Assembly: GCF_000008465.1 (NCBI RefSeq)
Contig: NC_006512.1
Coordinates: forward strand, 1,890,001 to 1,922,000
Length of the DNA stretch: 32,000 bases
Origin: Idiomarina loihiensis L2TR
Lineage (GTDB): Bacteria > Pseudomonadota > Gammaproteobacteria > Enterobacterales > Alteromonadaceae
Reading direction: 5' to 3'
The stretch's first letter is position 1; every line of letters begins with the position of its first letter. Below are positions 13,148-31,765 of this stretch, piece after piece. The notes under the pieces were generated by a model. That model did no database searches and was not told the origin of the DNA. It saw only the letters and a program-made list of their open reading frames with translations. The translations under genes and the position numbers were made by a program.

Positions 13148-13223
13148 TGGCGTCCCCTAGGGGATTTGAACCCCTGTTACCGCCGTGAAAGGGCGGTGTC
13201 CTAGGCCACTAGACGAAGGGGAC
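13148..13223 (-). tRNA. tRNA-Glu (UUC), copy 1 (D-loop variant)
   Basis: The reverse complement reads GTCCCCTTCGTCTAGTGGCCTAGGACACCGCCCTTTCACGGCGG...GGGGACGCCA, close to E. coli tRNA-Glu. The anticodon loop is CTTTCAC and the CCA end is encoded. Confidence 0.93.
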
Positions 13224-13258
13224 CCATGGAACTTAATTTAATATATGCAGAAAAGTAA

Positions 13259-13334
13259 TGGCGTCCCCTAGGGGATTTGAACCCCTGTTACCGCCGTGAA
13301 AGGGCGGTGTCCTGGACCACTAGACGAAGGGGAC
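13259..13334 (-). tRNA. tRNA-Glu (UUC), copy 2
   Basis: It is the same 76-nt gene as copy 1 except in the D-loop (GGTCCAGG versus GGCCTAGG). Confidence 0.93.
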
Positions 13335-13366
13335 GCAGAAATTACTTTTTACATTTTGTATTTGAA

Positions 13367-13442
13367 TGGCGTCCCCTAGGGGATTTGAACCCCTGTTACC
13401 GCCGTGAAAGGGCGGTGTCCTGGACCACTAGACGAAGGGGAC
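13367..13442 (-). tRNA. tRNA-Glu (UUC), copy 3
   Basis: It is identical to copy 2. Confidence 0.93.
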
Positions 13443-13489
13443 GCAACAACCAAATACTTACTGCCAAATAATGCTTTACCAAAACAACT

Positions 13490-13565
<76 letters not shown>

Positions 13566-16021: not shown

Positions 16022-16097
16022 GGTTGCTTAGCTCAGTTGGGAGAGCATCGCCCTTACAAGGCGAGGGTCACTGGTTCAAGCCCAGTAGCAACCACCA
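16022..16097 (+). tRNA. tRNA-Val (UAC), copy 1
   Basis: The sequence is GGTTGCTTAGCTCAGTTGGGAGAGCATCGCCCTTACAAGGCGAGGGTCACTGGTTCAAGCCCAGTAGCAACCACCA. It has a cloverleaf, the anticodon loop CTTACAA and an encoded CCA end. Confidence 0.93.
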
Positions 16098-16132
16098 CTT
16101 CTCTTCTTCCGTCAATTGCAGACCTTCAGGAT

Positions 16133-16208
16133 GGTTGCTTAGCTCAGTTGGGAGAGCATCGCCCTTACAAGGCGAGGGTCACTGGTTCGAGCCCAGTAGC
16201 AACCACCA
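16133..16208 (+). tRNA. tRNA-Val (UAC), copy 2
   Basis: It is the same gene with one T-loop difference (TTCGAG versus TTCAAG), and is followed by a T6 tract. Confidence 0.93.
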
Positions 16209-19231: not shown

Positions 19232-19256
19232 CACGCCGCCGACGTAGCCTGATGAG

Positions 19257-19269
19257 ATGGTCCCCTCCC
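19257..19269. repeat. Left subterminal inverted repeat (sTIR)
   Basis: ATGGTCCCCTCCC lies 9 bp inside the left end. Its perfect reverse complement is at 20616-20628. The copy-2 equivalents are at 30812-30824 and 29453-29465. Confidence 0.85.
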
Positions 19270-19337
19270 TCCTAAGCGGCATCGCAATGTGCCAATATAG
19301 AGGTTCAAGCTTCTATAGAACAGAGTGGAGAGGACCA

Positions 19338-20369
19338 ATGGCTATTGTAAACAGAATTGCCCTGGATTTGGCAAAGGATTTTATTCAGGTTTTGGCGCTG
19401 GATGAAAATGAGCAGGAAGTTTTTAATAAAAAACTGCGCAGCAATAAAGTGTTAGCGAAGCTGGCGACGCTGAGCCGTACGGATGACTGTGAAGTAGCGG
19501 TTGAGTCCTGCGGCATGAGTCATTACTGGCGCCGCGAATGTGAAAAGCTGGGTTATAAAACGGTGGCGTTGCCACCGCGTTTCGTCAAAGCGTACCTGCA
19601 GGGTGAGAAGAACGATGCGAATGACGCCCGGGCGATAGCCGAGGCGGCATCACGACCCAACCGTCAGACGGTCAGGCTGAAAAGCATTGAGCAGCAGGAC
19701 TTAGCATTGATGGTCAATCAGCGGGAAGGCTTCGTGCAGACGAGAACGCAGTTCTCGAATAGGTTGCGGGGGCAACTGGCCGAATACGGCATTCTTTTAC
19801 CGAAGCGAGTCGGTACGATATTACAGAGAGTACCGGAGGTACTGGAAGACGACAGCAATGCGCTGACGCTTCAGTCACGGGACCTCATCAACCGGCTCTA
19901 TCAGATGCTGCGAGCGGTGGATGAAGAAGTTAAAGCGCTGGATAAGCACTTAGCGACACAGGCCGAAAGGAATGAAGACAGTCAGCGGCTGATGACCCTG
20001 CCGGGTATCGGACCGATAACAGCGACCTCGCTGCTGGCACTGATAGGTGATGTGAGTGAATTTAAACGCGGCCGCAACCTGTCGGAATACCTGGGACTGG
20101 TACCACGGCAAAACAGCAGTGGCGGTAAAGACCGTTTAGGCGGTATTACCAAAAAAGGGAACACCAAACTCAGGACACTGCTGGTGCATGGCGCCCGCTC
20201 GGCACTGCGGGTGGCACAACAGCGCCACGACAGGCTGAGCCTCTGGGCACAGGATGTCGCTAAACGCAGAGGCAACAACGTTGCAGCGGTGGCACTGGCT
20301 AACAAGCACGCCCGGATAATCTGGGCGATGTTAAAGAATAAAGAAGATTACCGGATGACTGCTGCTTAA
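19338..20369 (+). CDS. IS110-family DEDD transposase/recombinase
   Basis: The 343-aa product starts at the ATG at 19338, preceded by GGAGAGG. The N-terminal RuvC-like DEDD region (IALDLAKDF..., ESCGMSHYW, NDANDA) and the C-terminal Tnp domain (LPGIGPITATSL...VPRQNSSGGK...ITKKGNTKLRTLL) are typical of the family. The upstream extension to 19257 begins inside the sTIR and is probably not translated. Confidence 0.9.
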   Translation: MAIVNRIALDLAKDFIQVLALDENEQEVFNKKLRSNKVLAKLATLSRTDDCEVAVESCGMSHYWRRECEKLGYKTVALPPRFVKAYLQGEKNDANDARAIAEAASRPNRQTVRLKSIEQQDLALMVNQREGFVQTRTQFSNRLRGQLAEYGILLPKRVGTILQRVPEVLEDDSNALTLQSRDLINRLYQMLRAVDEEVKALDKHLATQAERNEDSQRLMTLPGIGPITATSLLALIGDVSEFKRGRNLSEYLGLVPRQNSSGGKDRLGGITKKGNTKLRTLLVHGARSALRVAQQRHDRLSLWAQDVAKRRGNNVAAVALANKHARIIWAMLKNKEDYRMTAA

Positions 20370-20635
20370 CAGCATTCAGTAAAAGAGCACAGCGAAGGTT
20401 CATTCCTTCCGGGAGTTGCAAACGTCAACAGGATGGTAAAATAGGGTAAACCGACGACAACTGAGACTGTTGAACGTCCGTACATAAAGTACGTTAGCCT
20501 GATAAGCCAGTTGTCGTGCGGAGTTCATCCAGGCCAGGTGCGCAAAGCGCGCACCATAAACAGGCCGTATATATGCGAGCGCCCCGACATTTACCACGAG
20601 TTGCCGTTGCAAAACGGGAGGGGACCATATATGAC
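20370..20635 (+). ncRNA. Candidate IS-encoded guide RNA (seekRNA / bridge RNA) in the 3' non-coding region
   Basis: This 266-nt stretch between the transposase stop and the IS end is non-coding and identical in both copies. It contains a 13-bp stem (20451-20463 / 20508-20521, with G20518 bulged) enclosing two internal loops and an apical hairpin. It also contains a second stem-loop module (20532-20566) and a GCAA-tetraloop hairpin (20604-20617). It carries short matches to the IS ends and to the copy-1 target. The exact RNA ends are unknown. Confidence 0.55.
20616..20628. repeat. Right subterminal inverted repeat (sTIR)
   Basis: GGGAGGGGACCAT lies 7 bp inside the right end and is the reverse complement of 19257-19269. 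Confidence 0.85.
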
Positions 20636-20642
20636 ATTTATG

Positions 20643-20677
20643 TCAGGTGAGATATCTCCCCTGATGTGAACATCAGG
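20643..20677. other. Overlapping inverted repeats between convergent fghA and the MCP gene
   Basis: There is an imperfect 22-bp palindrome, tcaggtgagatatctcccctga (20643-20664). It overlaps the hairpin cctgatg-tgaa-catcagg (20660-20677), which abuts the MCP stop. Neither has a clear U-tract, so a terminator function is uncertain. Confidence 0.4.
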
Positions 20678-22516
20678 CTACACGCGGAATTTGATAACCG
20701 CCTGGCGTAATTGCTCTGTTTGATTGCGAACCTGAGCAACGGCATCGGCATTTGACTGCGCATCATTCGCTGCTTCCACACCGGCATCCCGCACACGGGT
20801 TATATTTCTGGCGGTTTCATCCACAACCGCCGATTGTTCTTCAACTGCCGTCGCGATAGATGCCGAACGGTCGTTAATTTTTAAAAGCTCCATATGGATG
20901 CGATTAAATAACTCATCGGACTCCGATGAATGCTGAGCACTCTCCTCACCCAGTTCATTACACTCCTGCAATGTGGTGACAATAATCTGCGTCTGCTGGT
21001 TCAACTGGCTGGTAATAGACTCAATTTCACCAATAGATTTTTGCGTGCGTGAAGCCAGTGTCCGGACTTCATCAGCAACAACAGCGAAACCACGCCCCTG
21101 CTCACCAGCTCGGGCAGCCTCAATAGCCGCATTCAGTGCCAGTAAATTGGTTTGCTCTGCAATACCATTTATAACCGTCACTATTTGTGTAATTGAAGCA
21201 CTGCGTTCCGCTAAGGTATTTGCTTCGCTCACACTACTGTTTAAACGCTCTGCCAGATACCGAACCTTTTCAACGCCAGCTTGTACTGAAGTACTGCCAT
21301 GCTTAGCCTGATCGGACAAACTGTTCACCTGCTCGGCAGTGTCTTCTGCATCATTCGCAATAGTATGAGCAGTGCTGCCCATCTCATTGATAGCGGCTGC
21401 AACCTGATCAACTTCGTGCGATTGCATATCCAGATTCTCAGACGTATGAGTGACGGTATCCGACACCTGCTGGGTTAACCCGTTAACCGTCTCAACTGAC
21501 TCATTAATTTGCTTAATAACGTTACGGAAGTATCTCAGAAGTTCATTAAAGCTATCGACTAAATCACCTAATTCATCACTACGGAACTTTTCTGATACCA
21601 GAGTTAAGTCATTGCTACTCTGGACTTTTTTCATGTCTTCGCGTAACTGAGTTAGCGGCTGATTAATGGAGCGAACAACCCAGAACAGCATGGCTACAAC
21701 AATAAATGCAATTGCTGCAAAAACCACAATAGGAACCCATTTCATGGTTGCCTGACGTGACTGAAGCAACTCATTTAGATTCTCATCTAACTCAGCTAAC
21801 GAACTCTCCATATTACCGGCAATAATTCTGACTTCACCTTTAATGCCGGACTCTTCATCCAGGCCAATTTCTTTCGACAAGCTGGCATAACGGCCAAAGT
21901 CACGACGATAAGCGTCAACTTTGGAAGCCAGATTCGGCGATGCCGATAGCTCGGCTTTCAACTCATCCAGTAAATTGTTAACTCGGCCGAGGTATTTGTC
22001 GTCAAAACGCAGCATAAAGTCTTTTTCGCTACGGCGTATCTGCAACAGAGTTACCAACAATTCGGTTCGGTTGGCTGTATCAATAGCTTCTTCCAGCTCA
22101 TGCGTCGCCGCCCGCAGCGCGCCATAGGCCGCACTATTTTCATCCAGTCCTCGTTGCTTAAACGCAGCAACTAAACTATTAAAATTTTCTTCATATTTTG
22201 AAACCTGCTCAGCAAGACCATCAATAAGTCGCGTAGAGCCCTCATCAGCAACCAGTTGGTTAAGCTGTTCTAACCTTTCAATCGTTACACTAACTTCTTG
22301 CTGTAGTTTATCCGCGTAACTTTCATCCATTCGCAAAAGGAAATCTTTTTCGGCACGACGCACTTGTAACAAACCGTTATGTACAGATTCCCGCAATTCA
22401 CTGGCGCGATGCAGCTGACTAATTTGAGACTGAAAAAACATCATCAGCATTAGTAGTATGATAAAAGCAGCCGTTGTTACCGCACCGACAGAGAGAAGTT
22501 TATTGCGAATTGACAT
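20678..22516 (-). CDS. Methyl-accepting chemotaxis protein
   Basis: The 612-aa ORF has an N-terminal TM segment, a helical periplasmic region with an internally repeated motif, a second TM segment and a HAMP domain. The signalling domain is highly conserved ([35 protein letters not shown]). Confidence 0.9.
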
Positions 22517-27744: not shown

Positions 27745-28122
27745 ATGAAACTATCTGAACCCTGCCCTTGCGGCCTCGATAAAACCTATCAACATTGTTG
27801 CTATCCATATCATAATGGAGAATCACTTGCGTCATCGCCTGAAGCCTTAATGCGTTCACGCTACAGTGCCTTTGTCGGACGCTTAGCAGGCTACTTAGAA
27901 GCAACATGGCATAGCAGCTACCGCCCCGCCTTTCTCGATTTAAGCGACTCACCAAACTGGCTTAAATTGCAGGTTATTTCTTCCAGCGTAGATCAGAATA
28001 AAGGGCAGGTGCATTTCCGCGCATTTTATCGCGACGGAGATGATATTGCTTTTATGGAAGAAAAATCTGATTTTATTTTCGAAGACGGCAAATGGTATTA
28101 CTTAACCGGCCAGACAACTTAA
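27745..28122 (+). CDS. ychJ: YchJ-family protein (UPF0225, SEC-C motif)
   Basis: The 125-aa product starts at the ATG at 27745 and begins MKLSEPCPCG...YQHCC (SEC-C metal-binding motif). The upstream extension in the track starts at a TTG and overlaps the DUF502 gene. Confidence 0.8.
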   Translation: MKLSEPCPCGLDKTYQHCCYPYHNGESLASSPEALMRSRYSAFVGRLAGYLEATWHSSYRPAFLDLSDSPNWLKLQVISSSVDQNKGQVHFRAFYRDGDDIAFMEEKSDFIFEDGKWYYLTGQTT

Positions 28123-29445
28123 GACAGCTGCTGACCGGTTTTATCTAAAAATACCAGACCGTGGGTTTTAACATGCTTCTCATAACGAGTTACTGTTAAC
28201 GGCTTAGAAAAGTAAAAACCCTGAAACTCTGAAAAGCCAATTTCGGTTAATCTTGTTAACTGAGACTTTTCTTCTACACCTTCAACGACACATTTAATTT
28301 TCAATTCAGAGCAAATATTAAAAATGCCCTTAACTAAGCTGTATTGTCGCCCGGATGTTTTTATGCCACGAAGCAGCGCTCTGTCCAGTTTTAACTTATC
28401 AATCGGGTAATAAGCCAAGCGGGTAACACTGGAATAGCCGACTCCAAAGTCATCAACCGATACCTTAAAGCCCCAGGACTTCAATTCATTCATAAGCTCT
28501 AATGAGTTGACCCTGTCCGACTCCAGACAGGTTTCTGTTAACTCCAGCTCTATCTGTGAAGGTTTAACCGAAAAATCGGCCAGATATTTGACCAGCTTCG
28601 AAATAAAATCGGGCTGAGAAAAGTCAAGCAGTGAAATGTTGATGGCTACGGGTAACAGCGGAAAATCATTTTTCTTCCACAGCGATATTTGAGCACAGAC
28701 TTTCTGAACAATTAAGTCGGTTAAACGACTTATCATTCGGTACTCTTCTGCAATTGGAATAAAAATAGCCGGAGAAATGGAACCCAGTACAGGGCTGTCC
28801 CAGCGGGCAAGTGCTTCAAGCCCGACACAAGTGCCATCGGCAGTCACTTTCGGTTGAAAACAAACATCCAACTCGTCGTTCTGTATGGCTTCATCCAAAA
28901 GAATTGAGATTTCATGGCGTTCCATAAACTCTTCCGAGTTTTCAGTATCATAAAGATGATAAAACTGGTTCACAGAAGCAAACTTCTTTGCTTCCAACGC
29001 ACGGGAAACAACAACGTCGGCGGTTTCACCATGCTTAGGAAACCTGGCCACACCGAACTGAAAAGACTGCTGACATTTAATACCCTGAAAGGTGTATTCT
29101 TTATCGAGAGAGTTTTTAATATCCAGTAAAACGTCTTTTAATTCGTTCTCTACCGTCTTTGGCAAAATAAACACCAGCTTATTTAACGCAATAGTCGCAG
29201 TTAAGCGCGGATGCTGCCGGTGCTTCTTCAACCGGCTGTATGAAGACGCTAAAAGTCTTCTGATAACACTTTCACCATACTTTAACCTGAGGTAGTCCTC
29301 GCTTTCACTTTGTGCAACAACCACAAAGAATTCACGATCTGACTTAGAAATTAATTTATTGCATTGCAACTCAAACCAGTCGCTGTTCGGCAAGTTTGTC
29401 TGAGTATCCAGGTAACGCAAACGGCGGTTTTCCTGCTCTAAGAAC
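28119..29445 (-). pseudogene. C-terminal fragment (degenerate GGDEF + EAL) of an IS-disrupted c-di-GMP signalling gene
   Basis: EAL-domain motifs are intact (QPKV, ELELTE, DDFGVGYSS, EGVE, QGFYFSKP). The preceding GGDEF-like domain has SESED in place of GGDEF. The first 41 codons of the track ORF come from the IS right end. Confidence 0.85.
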
Positions 29446-29711
29446 GTCATATATGGTCCCCTCCCGTTTTGCAACGGCAACTCGTGGTAAATGTCGGGGC
29501 GCTCGCATATATACGGCCTGTTTATGGTGCGCGCTTTGCGCACCTGGCCTGGATGAACTCCGCACGACAACTGGCTTATCAGGCTAACGTACTTTATGTA
29601 CGGACGTTCAACAGTCTCAGTTGTCGTCGGTTTACCCTATTTTACCATCCTGTTGACGTTTGCAACTCCCGGAAGGAATGAACCTTCGCTGTGCTCTTTT
29701 ACTGAATGCTG
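29446..29711 (-). ncRNA. Candidate seekRNA/bridge RNA, copy 2
   Basis: It is identical to the reverse complement of 20370-20635. Confidence 0.55.
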
Positions 29712-30743
29712 TTAAGCAGCAGTCATCCGGTAATCTTCTTTATTCTTTAACATCGCCCAGATTATCCGGGCGTGCTTGTTAGCCAGTGCCACCGCTGCAA
29801 CGTTGTTGCCTCTGCGTTTAGCGACATCCTGTGCCCAGAGGCTCAGCCTGTCGTGGCGCTGTTGTGCCACCCGCAGTGCCGAGCGGGCGCCATGCACCAG
29901 CAGTGTCCTGAGTTTGGTGTTCCCTTTTTTGGTAATACCGCCTAAACGGTCTTTACCGCCACTGCTGTTTTGCCGTGGTACCAGTCCCAGGTATTCCGAC
30001 AGGTTGCGGCCGCGTTTAAATTCACTCACATCACCTATCAGTGCCAGCAGCGAGGTCGCTGTTATCGGTCCGATACCCGGCAGGGTCATCAGCCGCTGAC
30101 TGTCTTCATTCCTTTCGGCCTGTGTCGCTAAGTGCTTATCCAGCGCTTTAACTTCTTCATCCACCGCTCGCAGCATCTGATAGAGCCGGTTGATGAGGTC
30201 CCGTGACTGAAGCGTCAGCGCATTGCTGTCGTCTTCCAGTACCTCCGGTACTCTCTGTAATATCGTACCGACTCGCTTCGGTAAAAGAATGCCGTATTCG
30301 GCCAGTTGCCCCCGCAACCTATTCGAGAACTGCGTTCTCGTCTGCACGAAGCCTTCCCGCTGATTGACCATCAATGCTAAGTCCTGCTGCTCAATGCTTT
30401 TCAGCCTGACCGTCTGACGGTTGGGTCGTGATGCCGCCTCGGCTATTGCCCGGGCGTCATTCGCATCGTTCTTCTCACCCTGCAGGTACGCTTTGACGAA
30501 ACGCGGTGGCAACGCCACCGTTTTATAACCCAGCTTTTCACATTCGCGGCGCCAGTAATGACTCATGCCGCAGGACTCAACCGCTACTTCACAGTCATCC
30601 GTACGGCTCAGCGTCGCCAGCTTCGCTAACACTTTATTGCTGCGCAGTTTTTTATTAAAAACTTCCTGCTCATTTTCATCCAGCGCCAAAACCTGAATAA
30701 AATCCTTTGCCAAATCCAGGGCAATTCTGTTTACAATAGCCAT
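29712..30743 (-). CDS. IS110-family DEDD transposase/recombinase, copy 2
   Basis: The protein is identical to the copy-1 transposase. Confidence 0.9.
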   Translation of the reverse strand: MAIVNRIALDLAKDFIQVLALDENEQEVFNKKLRSNKVLAKLATLSRTDDCEVAVESCGMSHYWRRECEKLGYKTVALPPRFVKAYLQGEKNDANDARAIAEAASRPNRQTVRLKSIEQQDLALMVNQREGFVQTRTQFSNRLRGQLAEYGILLPKRVGTILQRVPEVLEDDSNALTLQSRDLINRLYQMLRAVDEEVKALDKHLATQAERNEDSQRLMTLPGIGPITATSLLALIGDVSEFKRGRNLSEYLGLVPRQNSSGGKDRLGGITKKGNTKLRTLLVHGARSALRVAQQRHDRLSLWAQDVAKRRGNNVAAVALANKHARIIWAMLKNKEDYRMTAA

Positions 30744-30833
30744 TGGTCCTCTCCACTCTGTTCTATAGAAGCTTGAACCTCTATATTGGCACATTGCGAT
30801 GCCGCTTAGGAGGGAGGGGACCATCTCATCAGG

Positions 30834-31765
30834 TTACTCTCCAGCGTTTTCTCTTGTGTGCAATCGACAAATTCATAAACATAAGAGCTGGCTTCCGGAA
30901 CTTCTAATCTGACAACTTGTTGGTATGTATGCTCATGACGGATAATCTTGCCACCCGTGGGTAATTTGGCATGATTAATATCGGGAAACCAGTTAGAAAT
31001 AGACTGACAACCACTTCTCGTCGACTCATCTAAACCAAAAATATCACCGGCCTGTTTATTAAAATCTGTAATTAACCCGTCTTCATTAACAATAACTTTG
31101 GGTCTTCTCGACTCGGCAAAAAACACCCGGTAAAGCGAGTTCTTACCTTTTAAGTAATCGTTAGACTTTTGAGTTTCCTGATTCAGACGTTTTGCAGCGA
31201 CTATTGTACGAGCCACTGCGAGAGGAATACAGATGTTAAAAAACAGAAAAATAAGTCCCAAAATATATAGAGACGCATCAGGTAACTGTTCGTTAATTCC
31301 TGTCAATTCTGATAAGTCGATATCGTTAAGAATAATATAAAACGGCACAATATTAAGAATGCCGTAGAATAATGCAGCACGTCCACCTAAAAGCATCAAC
31401 GCTATAAGTGGTGAAGCATACATAAACATTGAGCTAACTTGTGCAAGGCTCAAGTCGACTAATAAAAGATTACAGGACAAACTCGCGGCAATAATCATGA
31501 CATGCAGAGAATGAGCACAAAAATGATAGTATCGAGTACTTAACCAAAATAGGGTCAGCATCACTCCCAAAAATGTGGAGGTAACGCCTATAGTGAAAAT
31601 TAAATGCAACTCTAATAAAGGGACAAGCGTATCAATAAAAACAGCTAATGAAAGGAAAGCTCCCGAGAAAAGAATAATTCTTAGTGCGCTGACTCGCCAA
31701 TTGGGAACACCATTTTCTGACGTTCCTTCGTCTTTAAGCAGAAAAAAGTTATTTAAGAAGTTCAT
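30834..31765 (-). pseudogene. N-terminal fragment (multi-TM sensor + PAS-like region) of the IS-disrupted GGDEF/EAL gene
   Basis: There are about 7 hydrophobic helices followed by a PAS-like segment (VIVNEDGLITDFNKQAGDIFGL...). The reading frame runs 8 codons plus a stop into the IS left end. Confidence 0.8.

What the first reader, a model, noticed from the sequence alone, without database searches (positions are those of the whole stretch)
20451..20580. Two stem/internal-loop modules in the 3' non-coding region carry short matches to both IS ends and to both strands of the copy-1 target
Structure:
- Module A is a stem (20451-20463 paired with 20508-20521, 13 bp, one bulge) enclosing internal loops 20464-20478 and 20494-20507.
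- Module A has an apical hairpin, cgtac-ataaa-gtacg (20479-20493).
- Module B is ggcc/ggcc (20532-20535 / 20563-20566) around a 7-bp stem (20537-20543 / 20549-20555), flanked by single-stranded arms.

Matches seen:
- cctgataag (20498-20506) matches the left IS terminus cctgatgag (19248-19256) at 8 of 9 positions.
- atatatg (20569-20575) is identical to the right terminus at 20627-20633.
- ttcatccagg (20524-20533) resembles the reverse complement of the left terminus (ctcatcagg) with a 1-nt insertion.
- acataaa (20482-20488) is the exact reverse complement of the copy-1 right flank tttatgt (20637-20643).
- tacgt (20490-20494) is the exact reverse complement of the copy-1 left flank acgta (19242-19246).
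- Together, 20482-20494 (acataaaGtacgt) mirrors the bottom strand of the reconstructed empty site (acataaaTCtacgt) across the insertion point.
- ccgacg (20451-20456) equals the top-strand left flank at 19239-19244.

This is the pattern expected of donor and target guide segments. Caveat: I searched flexibly by eye, so some 5-7-nt matches could be chance. Some also lie in segments I folded as stems.
Basis: seen in the sequence. Interest (0 to 1): 0.8.

Follow-up and report, generated by a model that had tools for sequence, protein, structure and literature searches.

The report
IS1111-type bridge (seek) RNA

Summary
The window holds two copies of a 1382-bp IS1111-type insertion sequence from Idiomarina: 19250-20631 on the + strand and 29450-30831 on the - strand.

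The finding lies in its 262-nt non-coding region downstream of the transposase gene.

An empty site in two metagenome contigs reads GTAGCC-TG-ACATTTATGTCAGG, so GTAGCC (19244-19249) is target DNA, not IS.

With the ends corrected, the region is a complete bridge RNA (seekRNA):
- Module A is the target-binding loop. UGAACGUC (20471-78) pairs with the top strand right of the crossover. UAGCCUG (20495-501) pairs with the bottom strand left of it.
- The arms flanking module B read the joined IS ends. These are GUUCAUC (20523-29) and UAUAUAUG (20568-75).
- An outer helix (20434-40 with 20590-96) closes a three-way junction.

About 70 relatives with other targets carry matching guide changes.

Verdict: real and functional by comparative evidence, and a new member of a known kind.

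The parts
19250..20631 (+). IS copy 1, 1382 bp. The Hall-lab convention is used, so the left copy of the TG core is counted as part of the IS.
   Evidence: The empty site in L135/L136 reads GTAGCC-TG-ACATTTATG. The two window copies are identical over this span.
19244..19249 (+). Left target half, GTAGCC. This is target DNA, not IS.
   Evidence: It is present in the empty site. It is invariant in 17 of 18 unique left flanks.
19250..19256 (+). 7-nt left extension TGATGAG: core TG followed by ATGAG, the start of the right-donor arm.
   Evidence: Its position relative to the subterminal inverted repeat fits IS1111 geometry (PMC11187229).
19257..19269 (+). Left subterminal inverted repeat, ATGGTCCCCTCCC.
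   Evidence: Read directly from the sequence. The same geometry is seen in about 60 relatives.
19338..20369 (+). Transposase, 343 aa: DEDD/RuvC-like domain plus Transposase_20 domain, with the GLxPxxxxSG motif.
   Evidence: Pfam PF01548 at 8e-20 and PF02371 at 1.8e-26. D10, E56, D93, D96, S261 and G262 are invariant in the alignment.
20434..20596 (+). Predicted full bridge RNA (the 'long seekRNA'), about 163 nt. The ends are inferred from the outer helix and were not measured.
   Evidence: Fold z = -4.0. The architecture is conserved in 65 to 71 relatives.
20434..20440 (+). Outer helix P0, 5' strand: UGGUAAA.
   Evidence: It pairs with 20590-96. Relatives show 38 different helix sequence pairs, with the partner at a similar offset (about 13-19 nt past DBL-B) in most of them.
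20451..20463 (+). Stem A, 5' strand (base of the target-binding module).
   Evidence: Compensatory changes occur at 6 pairs among the close relatives. The helix is kept with many pair types in 65 sequences.
20471..20478 (+). Target guide T (RTG-like), UGAACGUC. It pairs with the top strand G-ACGTTCA, meaning core position 2 plus the right flank.
   Evidence: It covaries with the right flank in natural variants. Label permutation gave 0 of 2000.
20479..20493 (+). Apical hairpin of the target-binding module. It is structural, not a guide.
   Evidence: The stem covaries. The loop does not track the targets.
20495..20503 (+). Target guide B (LTG-like), UAGCCUG. It has the same sense as the target TAGCC-TG and so pairs with the bottom strand. 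It is followed by AU, which equals the first two IS bases (handshake-like).
   Evidence: It covaries perfectly with the left flank: UAGGUCG, UAGCUUG, UAACUUG, UAGCCCG and others. Permutation gave 0 of 2000.
20508..20521 (+). Stem A, 3' strand.
20523..20529 (+). Donor guide T (RDG-like), GUUCAUC. It pairs with G-ATGAG at the IS left end in the circle junction.
   Evidence: IS-end position 6 is Watson-Crick paired with the guide in 20 of 20 distinct combinations, with covariation between A:U and G:C. L037 shows ATGTAAT paired with AUUACAU.
20532..20566 (+). Stem B, the hairpin that separates the two donor arms.
   Evidence: Fold. GGCC/GGCC pairs in 99.6% of cells, with CG-to-UA changes. The inner stem covaries among close relatives.
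20568..20575 (+). Donor guide B (LDG-like), UAUAUAUG. It has the same sense as the IS right end CATATA plus core TG.
   Evidence: The core base U/C tracks the right-junction T/C in 79 of 84 cases. It equals the TBL-B core base in 71 of 71 RNAs. L084 shows ATGTA paired with AUGUA.
20590..20596 (+). Outer helix P0, 3' strand: UUUACCA.
20607..20612 (+). TTGCAA, a candidate -35 box. A promoter would be completed only in the circle, where 17 nt further on TATG from the right end joins AT from the left end.
   Evidence: Read from the sequence. TTGCAA is invariant in the 17-sequence alignment. No sigma-70-like site was found in the integrated IS. Junction promoters are documented for ISEc11 (PMC11187229).
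20616..20628 (+). Right subterminal inverted repeat, GGGAGGGGACCAT, followed by the 3-nt extension ATA (20629-31).
20632..20641 (+). Right copy of the core TG plus the right target half ACATTTAT.
   Evidence: Empty site. Consensus of 12 unique right flanks.
29450..30831 (-). IS copy 2, with an identical non-coding region, inserted at GTAACC-TG-ACGTTCTT inside a GGDEF/EAL gene.
   Evidence: Removing it restores a 754-aa ORF with EAL and GGDEF domains.

Best explanation
Region 20434-20596 encodes the bridge RNA (seekRNA) of an IS1111-type insertion sequence.

**Fold.** The RNA forms a three-way junction closed by an outer helix.
 - Its 5' strand, UGAACGUC, pairs with the top strand of the target to the right of the crossover (G-ACGTTYA).
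 - Its 3' strand, UAGCCUG, pairs with the bottom strand to the left of the crossover (TAGCC-TG).
 - The two guides overlap at the core.
 - GUUCAUC pairs with G-ATGAG.
 - UAUAUAUG pairs with the strand opposite ATATA-TG.

**Mechanism.** The DEDD/Ser transposase, loaded with this RNA, synapses the circle junction with a site of the form GTAGCC-TG-ACRTTYA. That site is one arm of an Idiomarina REP-like palindrome. The enzyme recombines within the TG core and inserts the IS in one orientation without a target duplication.

**Shown here, by sequence comparison:**
- the IS ends, the empty site and the target consensus;
- the positions of the four complementary segments;
- their covariation with the DNA;
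- the helices.

**Inferred from IS621, ISEc11 and ISPa11:**
- that the RNA is made, probably processed from a transcript started at the circle-junction promoter;
- that it binds the transposase;
- that it is required for transposition.
For: **Element identity and ends**
- The transposase has PF01548 and PF02371.
- There is a 13-bp subterminal inverted repeat with a 7-nt left and a 3-nt right extension.
- The long non-coding region is downstream of the transposase gene.
- The empty site is GTAGCC-TG-ACATTTATG.
- Excising copy 2 in silico restores a 754-aa ORF.
- 18 unique left flanks and 12 unique right flanks give the consensus GTAGCC-TG-AC(G/A)TT(Y)A.

**Natural retargeting of the target guides**
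- Left guide and left flank change together: UAGGUCG with TAGGT-CG, UAGCUUG with TAGCT-TG, UAACUUG with TAACT-TG, UAGCCCG with TAGCC-CG.
- Right guide and right flank change together: AAGGCGC with G-CGCCTT, UGAAUGUC with GACATTCA, AUAGCGUC with GACGTTAT.

**Test across 66 unique insertions of about 70 relatives**
- At each of the four positions, the best anchored match falls in the same alignment columns (136, 183, 218, 267) in most elements.
- Mean run length against an element's own DNA versus other elements' DNA was 5.4 vs 2.8, 5.9 vs 2.3, 5.0 vs 4.5 and 5.9 vs 4.9.
- None of 2000 label permutations reached the observed value for any of the four.

**Core and donor covariation**
- The core base in the target and donor guides is identical in 71 of 71 RNAs.
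- It matches the left junction in 83 of 84 cases and the right junction in 79 of 84.
- Donor-guide position 6 is Watson-Crick in 20 of 20 distinct combinations, with both A:U and G:C represented.

**Helices**
- Helices covary.
- The outer helix shows 38 distinct sequence pairs.

**Literature**
- The order of the guides, top-strand guide 5' of bottom-strand guide, matches IS1111 seekRNAs (PMC11187229).
- Donor nucleotides sitting in a multiloop matches the description of IS1111 bridge RNAs in PMC11208160.
Against: - There is no expression, binding or transposition data for this element.
- The donor arms are short: 6 and 7-8 pairs, each including a G:U wobble.
- The IS ends are so conserved that donor covariation rests on a few lineages.
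- In ISEc11, the short 82-nt seekRNA, which maps to the target module only, sufficed for transposition (PMC11187229).
- RNAalifold prefers pairing the donor-T segment with the conserved 5' motif GGAUGG. In the free RNA that segment may therefore be base-paired.
- The label permutations do not correct for relatedness among the elements.
- No Rfam family matches the region.
Confidence: 0.85

Rival explanations
1. Only module A is a guide, acting as a short seekRNA that recognises the target and the target-derived flanks of the integrated copy. Module B and its arms would be a protein-binding scaffold. The transposase would recognise the IS ends through the subterminal inverted repeats, not through RNA pairing.
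For: - In ISEc11, the 82-nt seekRNA alone supported 42% transposition.
- In that system, reprogramming required changing the donor flanks rather than the donor ends (PMC11187229).
- The IS1111 group has long subterminal repeats that IS110-type elements lack.
- The donor arms here give only 6-8 pairs.
- The donor-T arm can instead pair with the 5' motif.
Against: - The donor arms covary with the ends wherever the ends vary.
  - Core base C/U matches the right junction in 79 of 84 cases.
  - L084 has ATGTA paired with AUGUA.
  - End position 6 is Watson-Crick in 20 of 20 combinations, with both A:U and G:C.
  - L037 has ATGTAAT paired with AUUACAU.
- The core bases of the target and donor strands agree in 71 of 71 RNAs. 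Nothing requires that if only one of them reads DNA.
- PMC11208160 reports donor-binding nucleotides in multiloops of IS1111 bridge RNAs.
Confidence: 0.12
2. The apical hairpin 20482-94 would read both strands of the target across the insertion point. cctgataag and ttcatccagg would read the left IS terminus cctgatgag.
For: The strings exist exactly as described.
Against: - The empty site shows that cctga is target DNA, and that the two hairpin matches lie 8 nt apart in the real site.
- Flank bases upstream of GTAGCC are unconserved.
- TTTATGT is present at only 2 of 10 insertions made by the identical RNA.
- Hairpin loops differ among relatives without tracking their targets.
Confidence: 0.02
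3. The region has no guide function. It would be a structured 3' UTR or terminator, or a captured fragment of the REP element, and the matches would be residual similarity or chance.
For: - TAGCCTGA is also part of the host REP sequence.
- There is no direct evidence of expression.
Against: - Relatives that target unrelated sequences carry correspondingly different loop sequences at the same positions.
- The helices covary.
- There is no terminator-like site in this region.
Confidence: 0.01

Closest known systems
seekRNAs of IS1111-family elements ISEc11, ISPa11, ISKpn4 and ISXne4 (Siddiquee et al. 2024, PMC11187229)
   Same: - DEDD transposase with an SG motif.
- Subterminal inverted repeats with a 7-nt left extension.
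- Long non-coding region downstream of the transposase gene.
- Stem with an internal loop in which the top-strand-complementary segment lies 5' of the bottom-strand-complementary segment, and the two overlap at the insertion point.
- No target duplication.
- A REP target, as for ISPa11.
- Natural retargeting between close relatives, as for ISEc11 and ISXne4.
- A promoter predicted to form only at the circle junction.
   Different: - Different host (Idiomarina) and different target sequence, GTAGCC-TG-ACRTTYA.
- The transposase sequence was not compared with those elements here.
- Nothing has been tested experimentally.
- Here the longer RNA also shows donor-complementary arms, which that paper did not assign.
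IS621 bridge RNA (IS110 group; Durrant et al. 2024, PMC11208160; Hiraizumi et al. 2024, PMC11208158)
   Same: - A bispecific RNA with a target-binding part and a donor-binding part.
- Each part reads the left arm on one strand and the right arm on the other, and both share a core.
- The core base is coordinated between the target and donor guides.
- Two bases after the core in the target loop match the donor rather than the target, which resembles a handshake guide.
   Different: - The RNA is encoded in the right end, not the left end.
- The order of the strand-specific guides is reversed.
- The donor guides lie in a three-way multiloop instead of an internal loop.
- The core is TG (YG/YR in relatives) rather than CT.
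- The handshake-like bases sit next to the bottom-strand guide rather than the top-strand guide.
- The subterminal repeats are long.
ISPpu9/ISPpu10-type REP-targeting IS110-family elements of Pseudomonas putida (PMC12288879; PMC11208160, Extended Data Fig. 10)
   Same: Orientation-specific insertion into repetitive extragenic palindromes. The element is associated with a small RNA.
   Different: Different subgroup, RNA and host. I read only the abstract and a figure legend, so this comparison is shallow.

Membership tests
IS1111 group of the IS110 family | DEDD (RuvC-like) transposase with the C-terminal Transposase_20 domain and the GL-P----S(T)G motif | tested here: met
   PF01548 at 8e-20 and PF02371 at 1.8e-26. 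The sequence GLVPRQNSSG is present. D10, E56, D93, D96, S261 and G262 are invariant among 12 homologues.
IS1111 group of the IS110 family | Subterminal inverted repeats of 7-17 bp, with a 7-nt extension at the left end and a short extension at the right end | tested here: met
   The 13-bp repeat ATGGTCCCCTCCC is at 19257-69 and 20616-28. The extensions are TGATGAG on the left and ATA on the right. About 60 relatives have the same geometry.
IS1111 group of the IS110 family | The longer non-coding region lies downstream of the transposase gene | tested here: met
   88 nt upstream (19250-19337) against 262 nt downstream (20370-20631).
IS1111 group of the IS110 family | Sequence- and orientation-specific insertion without target-site duplication | tested here: met
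   Empty site. An exact ORF is restored on removing copy 2. 18 left and 12 right unique flanks share one consensus in one orientation. Only the TG core is present at both junctions.
seekRNA / bridge RNA | An internal loop of a non-coding-region stem carries one segment complementary to the target's top strand and one complementary to its bottom strand. They overlap at the crossover, with the top-strand segment 5' in IS1111 elements. | tested here: met
   UGAACGUC (20471-78) and UAGCCUG (20495-501).
seekRNA / bridge RNA | Guides covary with targets among relatives (natural reprogramming) | tested here: met
   Permutation gave 0 of 2000 for both target guides.
seekRNA / bridge RNA | A donor-binding part complementary to both strands of the joined IS ends and sharing the core with the target part | tested here: met
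   GUUCAUC and UAUAUAUG flank stem B. Covariation is shown, and permutation gave 0 of 2000. The test is in silico only, the arms are short, and an alternative RNA-RNA pairing exists.
seekRNA / bridge RNA | The RNA is transcribed, co-purifies with the transposase and is required for circle formation and insertion | not testable with these tools
   No expression or biochemical data are available. This is inferred from ISEc11 and IS621.
seekRNA / bridge RNA | A circular intermediate whose junction creates a promoter | tested here: inconclusive
   By eye, TTGCAA (20607-12), a 17-nt spacer and TATG|AT would form at the junction. The integrated IS has no sigma-70-like site. The circle itself cannot be observed here.
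Rfam-curated RNA family | A match to a curated covariance model | tested here: not met
   There was no hit at the gathering threshold, and none at E <= 10 on 20360-20660. No Rfam 15 model reached even a weak match in this region.

The most novel reading that the evidence does not exclude
IS1111-type bridge RNAs may run the IS621 mechanism in mirror image and with a looser core. Three observations point this way.
- The two bases after the core in the bottom-strand target guide (AU, 20502-03) match the IS left end rather than the target. That would be a handshake guide for the bottom strand, implying bottom-strand-first exchange.
- In about 50 relatives the left junction reads CA while the right junction reads CG. 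This suggests an effective 1-nt or wobble-tolerant core.
- The conserved 5' motif GGAUGG mimics the donor arm and could mask the donor guide until DNA binds.
Probability: 0.2. Interest if true: 0.55.

Novelty: new member of a known kind. Interest (0 to 1): 0.35.

Why it matters
This adds a well-delimited IS1111-type recombinase and guide-RNA pair. All four guide segments, the core, the ends, an empty site and a roughly 15-bp target are assigned.

It also provides a graded natural series of retargeted variants: single-base guide changes within Idiomarina, and whole-guide swaps at 83% protein identity. Such a series is useful as a starting point for programmable-recombinase engineering, and for asking whether IS1111 elements really need the donor-binding part.

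For genome annotation, it explains why this IS sits in one arm of REP-like palindromes, and how it could also hit a coding gene (a GGDEF/EAL gene) that happens to match the guides.

It does not reveal a new kind of system.

Tried and rejected
Rejected on the basis of unoccupied REP copies, a true empty site and ORF restoration.
- **Apical hairpin and ccgacg as guides.** Rejected. They are specific to copy 1, and the hairpin loop differs among relatives without tracking their targets.
- **TGA as a 3-nt core.** Rejected. In relatives the shared bases shrink to TG/CG, and in distant relatives only the first base is shared between the two junctions.
- **Outer helix with an off-by-one register.** My first structure string mis-indexed it. 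I corrected it and confirmed it.
- **Window-derived structure string on the 65-sequence alignment.** It mis-registers stem A in distant relatives by one column. I used RNAalifold's own pairs for those sequences instead.
- **Plasmid collection search with the IS.** No match.
- **Rfam.** No family matched.
- **Supplements of the two key papers.** Neither mentions Idiomarina or ISIlo, so I could not establish whether this IS is already catalogued.
- **GGG/CCC pairing (20444-46 with 20583-85).** It is predicted for the window RNA, but I could not find a consistent equivalent in distant relatives, so it is left open.

Full report
**What is in the window**

- A 1395-nt inverted repeat marks two copies of one element: 19244-20638 and 29443-30837.
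- Each copy carries a 343-aa ORF (19338-20369 in copy 1) with the DEDD_Tnp_IS110 and Transposase_20 domains.
- Each has 13-bp subterminal inverted repeats, ATGGTCCCCTCCC at 19257-69 and its complement at 20616-28.
- The finding (20451-20580) lies in the 262-nt non-coding stretch between the stop codon and the right end.
- The same transposase occurs in Idiomarina genomes and metagenomes. That gave about 25 further insertions.

**Checking the observation**

- Folding 20430-20600 as RNA reproduces stem A, the apical hairpin and module B. It also adds an outer helix, 20434-40 with 20590-96. The MFE is -56.4 kcal/mol, z = -4.0, with 0 of 200 shuffles as stable.
- K-mer sharing between 20451-20580 and the two boundaries exceeds 1000 dinucleotide shuffles: k=5 gives 24 against 9.0, and k=7 gives 5 against 0.5, P = 0.001.
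- The excess comes from TAGCCTGAT (20495-503) and ATATATG (20569-75).
- A single chance 7-mer such as acataaa is expected about half the time.

**Where the IS really ends**

- Unoccupied copies of the host's REP-like palindrome read yGTAGCCTGA|CRTTYAYGTCAGG.
- Two metagenome contigs carry the same esterase gene as the window, followed directly by the chemotaxis-receptor gene. They give the true empty site of copy 1...ccgacGTAGCCTGACATTTATGTCAGGTGAG....
- GTAGCC (19244-49) is therefore target DNA.
- TG is present at both junctions (19250-51 and 20632-33).
- The element is 1382 bp (19250-20631). It has a 7-nt left extension (TGATGAG) and a 3-nt right extension (ATA) beyond the repeats. This is the geometry described for IS1111-family elements (PMC11187229).
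- Deleting copy 2 (29450-30831) together with one TG restores an uninterrupted 754-aa GGDEF/EAL ORF. This confirms the boundaries and the absence of a target duplication.
- 18 unique left flanks and 12 unique right flanks give GTAGCC-TG-AC(G/A)TT(Y)A. There is no conservation upstream of the G.

- With the corrected site, the 3' strand of the internal loop, UAGCCUG (20495-501), is identical to the top strand TAGCC-TG. It would therefore pair with the bottom strand.
- The 5' strand, UGAACGUC (20471-78), is the reverse complement of G-ACGTTCA. It pairs with all observed right-flank variants through G:U wobbles. The only exception is an A-C mismatch at ACATT sites.
- The two guides overlap at the core, with the top-strand guide 5' of the bottom-strand guide. 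This is as reported for IS1111 seekRNAs (PMC11187229).
- Copy 2's non-REP site shares with copy 1 just the bases these guides read: GTAaCC-TG-ACGTTC.
- Natural variants retarget in step.
  - Within Idiomarina: UAAACGUC, UGAAUGUC with GACATTCA, AUAGCGUC with GACGTTAT, and AUAGCCUC with GATGCTAT.
  - In an 83%-identical relative, both guides are replaced: AAGGCGC with G-CGCCTT, and UAGGUCG, UAGCUUG or UAACUUG with TAGGT-CG, TAGCT-TG or TAACT-TG.
  - A 52% relative has UAGCCCG with TAGCC-CG.

- The predicted circle junction is CCATATA-TG-ATGAGATGG.
- GUUCAUC (20523-29), between stems A and B, pairs with G-ATGAG using one wobble.
- UAUAUAUG (20568-75), just 3' of stem B, has the same sense as (C)ATATA-TG.
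- The ends are conserved, so variation is scarce. Where it exists, the RNA follows it.
  - In L025, L028 and L034 the core is CG, and both the target strand (UAGGU-CG) and the donor strand (UAUAUA-CG) read C.
  - L084 has ATGTA-TG with AUGUA-UG.
  - L106 and the window family have ATGAG with a U opposite the A.
  - L037 has ATGTAAT with AUUACAU.
  - Several relatives with ATGGT or ATGGA carry the matching A or U.
- Counted over distinct combinations:
  - End position 6 is Watson-Crick in 20 of 20.
  - The core base of the donor strand equals the right-junction base in 79 of 84.
  - The core base of the target strand equals the left-junction base in 83 of 84.
  - The two RNA core bases agree with each other in 71 of 71 RNAs.

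**Family-wide test**

- A metagenome scan gave 80 loci with 42-50% identical transposases. Subterminal repeats defined both ends in about 60 of them.
- In 66 unique insertions, the best anchored complementarity anywhere in the non-coding region falls, in most elements, at the same four alignment columns: 136, 183, 218 and 267.
- Mean run lengths against an element's own DNA versus other elements' DNA, and the number of label permutations (out of 2000) that reached the observed mean:

| Guide | Own DNA | Other elements' DNA | Permutations reaching observed |
|---|---|---|---|
| Target T | 5.4 | 2.8 | 0 |
| Target B | 5.9 | 2.3 | 0 |
| Donor T | 5.0 | 4.5 | 0 |
| Donor B | 5.9 | 4.9 | 0 |

- These permutations do not correct for shared ancestry.

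**Helices**

- Among 17 close sequences, stem A has 6 pairs with double changes, the apical hairpin has 2 and inner stem B has 3. The covariation score is 0.174 against 0.095 in shuffles, and slid controls give 0.071 or less.
- RNAalifold on 65 sequences keeps stem A, the hairpin, GGCC/GGCC and a 2-bp helix inside the loop (20467-68 with 20505-06; CG 41, UA 24).
- The outer helix pairs the conserved 5' motif with a segment at a similar offset (about 13-19 nt past the donor-B strand) in most sequences. It takes 38 different sequence pairs, for example UGAUGACG/CGUCAUCA, AUGGCG/CGCCAU and UGGUC/GACCA.
- The donor strands therefore lie in a three-way multiloop. PMC11208160 states this for many IS1111 orthologues.

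**Open points**

- RNAalifold also proposes pairing of GGAUGG (20431-36) with UUCAUCC (20524-30). This would compete with both the outer helix and the donor-T role. I treat it as an unresolved alternative or a possible masking structure.
- After the core, the target-B strand continues AU, which equals the first IS bases (AT) rather than the target. This holds clearly in the P0003 group, where the target continues CG. It resembles the 2-nt handshake guides of IS621 (PMC11208158), but it sits on the other strand. The following AG is base-paired, so it is not evidence of a longer match.
- In distant relatives the left junction reads CA and the right junction CG. I did not resolve what this means for the core.
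- ISEc11's short seekRNA alone sufficed for transposition. Whether the donor arms are required is therefore the main functional uncertainty.

**Expression**

- No sigma-70-like promoter is found in the integrated element.
- TTGCAA (20607-12), a 17-nt spacer and TATG|AT would form a promoter only in the circle, as shown for ISEc11 (PMC11187229). This is inference.

**Comparison and verdict**

- All sequence-testable defining features of an IS1111-group element and of its seekRNA/bridge RNA are met. Expression, protein binding and requirement for transposition could not be tested.
- No Rfam model matches, and the element is not named in the held supplements of the two key papers.
- This is a real, well-supported bridge RNA, and a new member of a kind described in 2024.
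Its assignment of which bases read what is largely wrong.

Noticed in passing
window 29450-30831 (- strand), flanks 28119-29449 and 30832-31765: IS copy 2 interrupts a gene. Removing it together with one TG restores a 754-aa ORF with GGDEF (5.5e-07) and EAL (1.9e-64) domains. The site, GTAACC-TG-ACGTTCTT, is not a REP, but it pairs with both target guides.
   Followed up: yes
window 20660-20681 (- strand): An unoccupied target-like site, GTAGCCTGATGTTCACATCAGG. It is the other arm of the REP palindrome hit by copy 1, and it is fully pairable with the guides using one wobble. The same site type is occupied in L012.
   Followed up: partly
L056-L134 (relatives with 42-50% protein identity): The dinucleotide at the left junction is usually CA, while at the right junction it is usually CG. 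The RNA bottom-strand guides read CG or CA. Only the first core base is consistently shared between the two junctions.
   Followed up: partly
window 20431-20436 and 20524-20530: The conserved 5' motif GGAUGG resembles the IS left end and can pair with the donor-T segment UUCAUCC. RNAalifold picks this helix, with A:U in 9 of the 10 sequences that have A at that position. It conflicts with the better-supported outer helix.
   Followed up: partly
L007, L010 (CP005964.1, the 2.84-Mb contig of assembly GCA_000401175.1) compared with L001/L005: The left flank of one IS copy and the right flank of another correspond to the two sides of a single insertion in a related genome. This suggests recombination between IS copies, such as an inversion.
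   Followed up: no
window 13148-13565 (-) and 16022-16208 (+): tRNA clusters: three tRNA-Glu(UUC) plus one tRNA-Ala(GGC), and two tRNA-Val(UAC).
   Followed up: no
L004 5149-6162, L006 1857-2870 and 6444-7032: A second IS110-family transposase of 337 aa lies next to copies of this IS. It sits beside sequences that resemble the same REP element.
   Followed up: no
L014 (Idiomarina piscisalsi) junctions: In this one insertion the left junction core is TG and the right junction core is CG. This fits insertion into a site whose core differs from the donor's.
   Followed up: no
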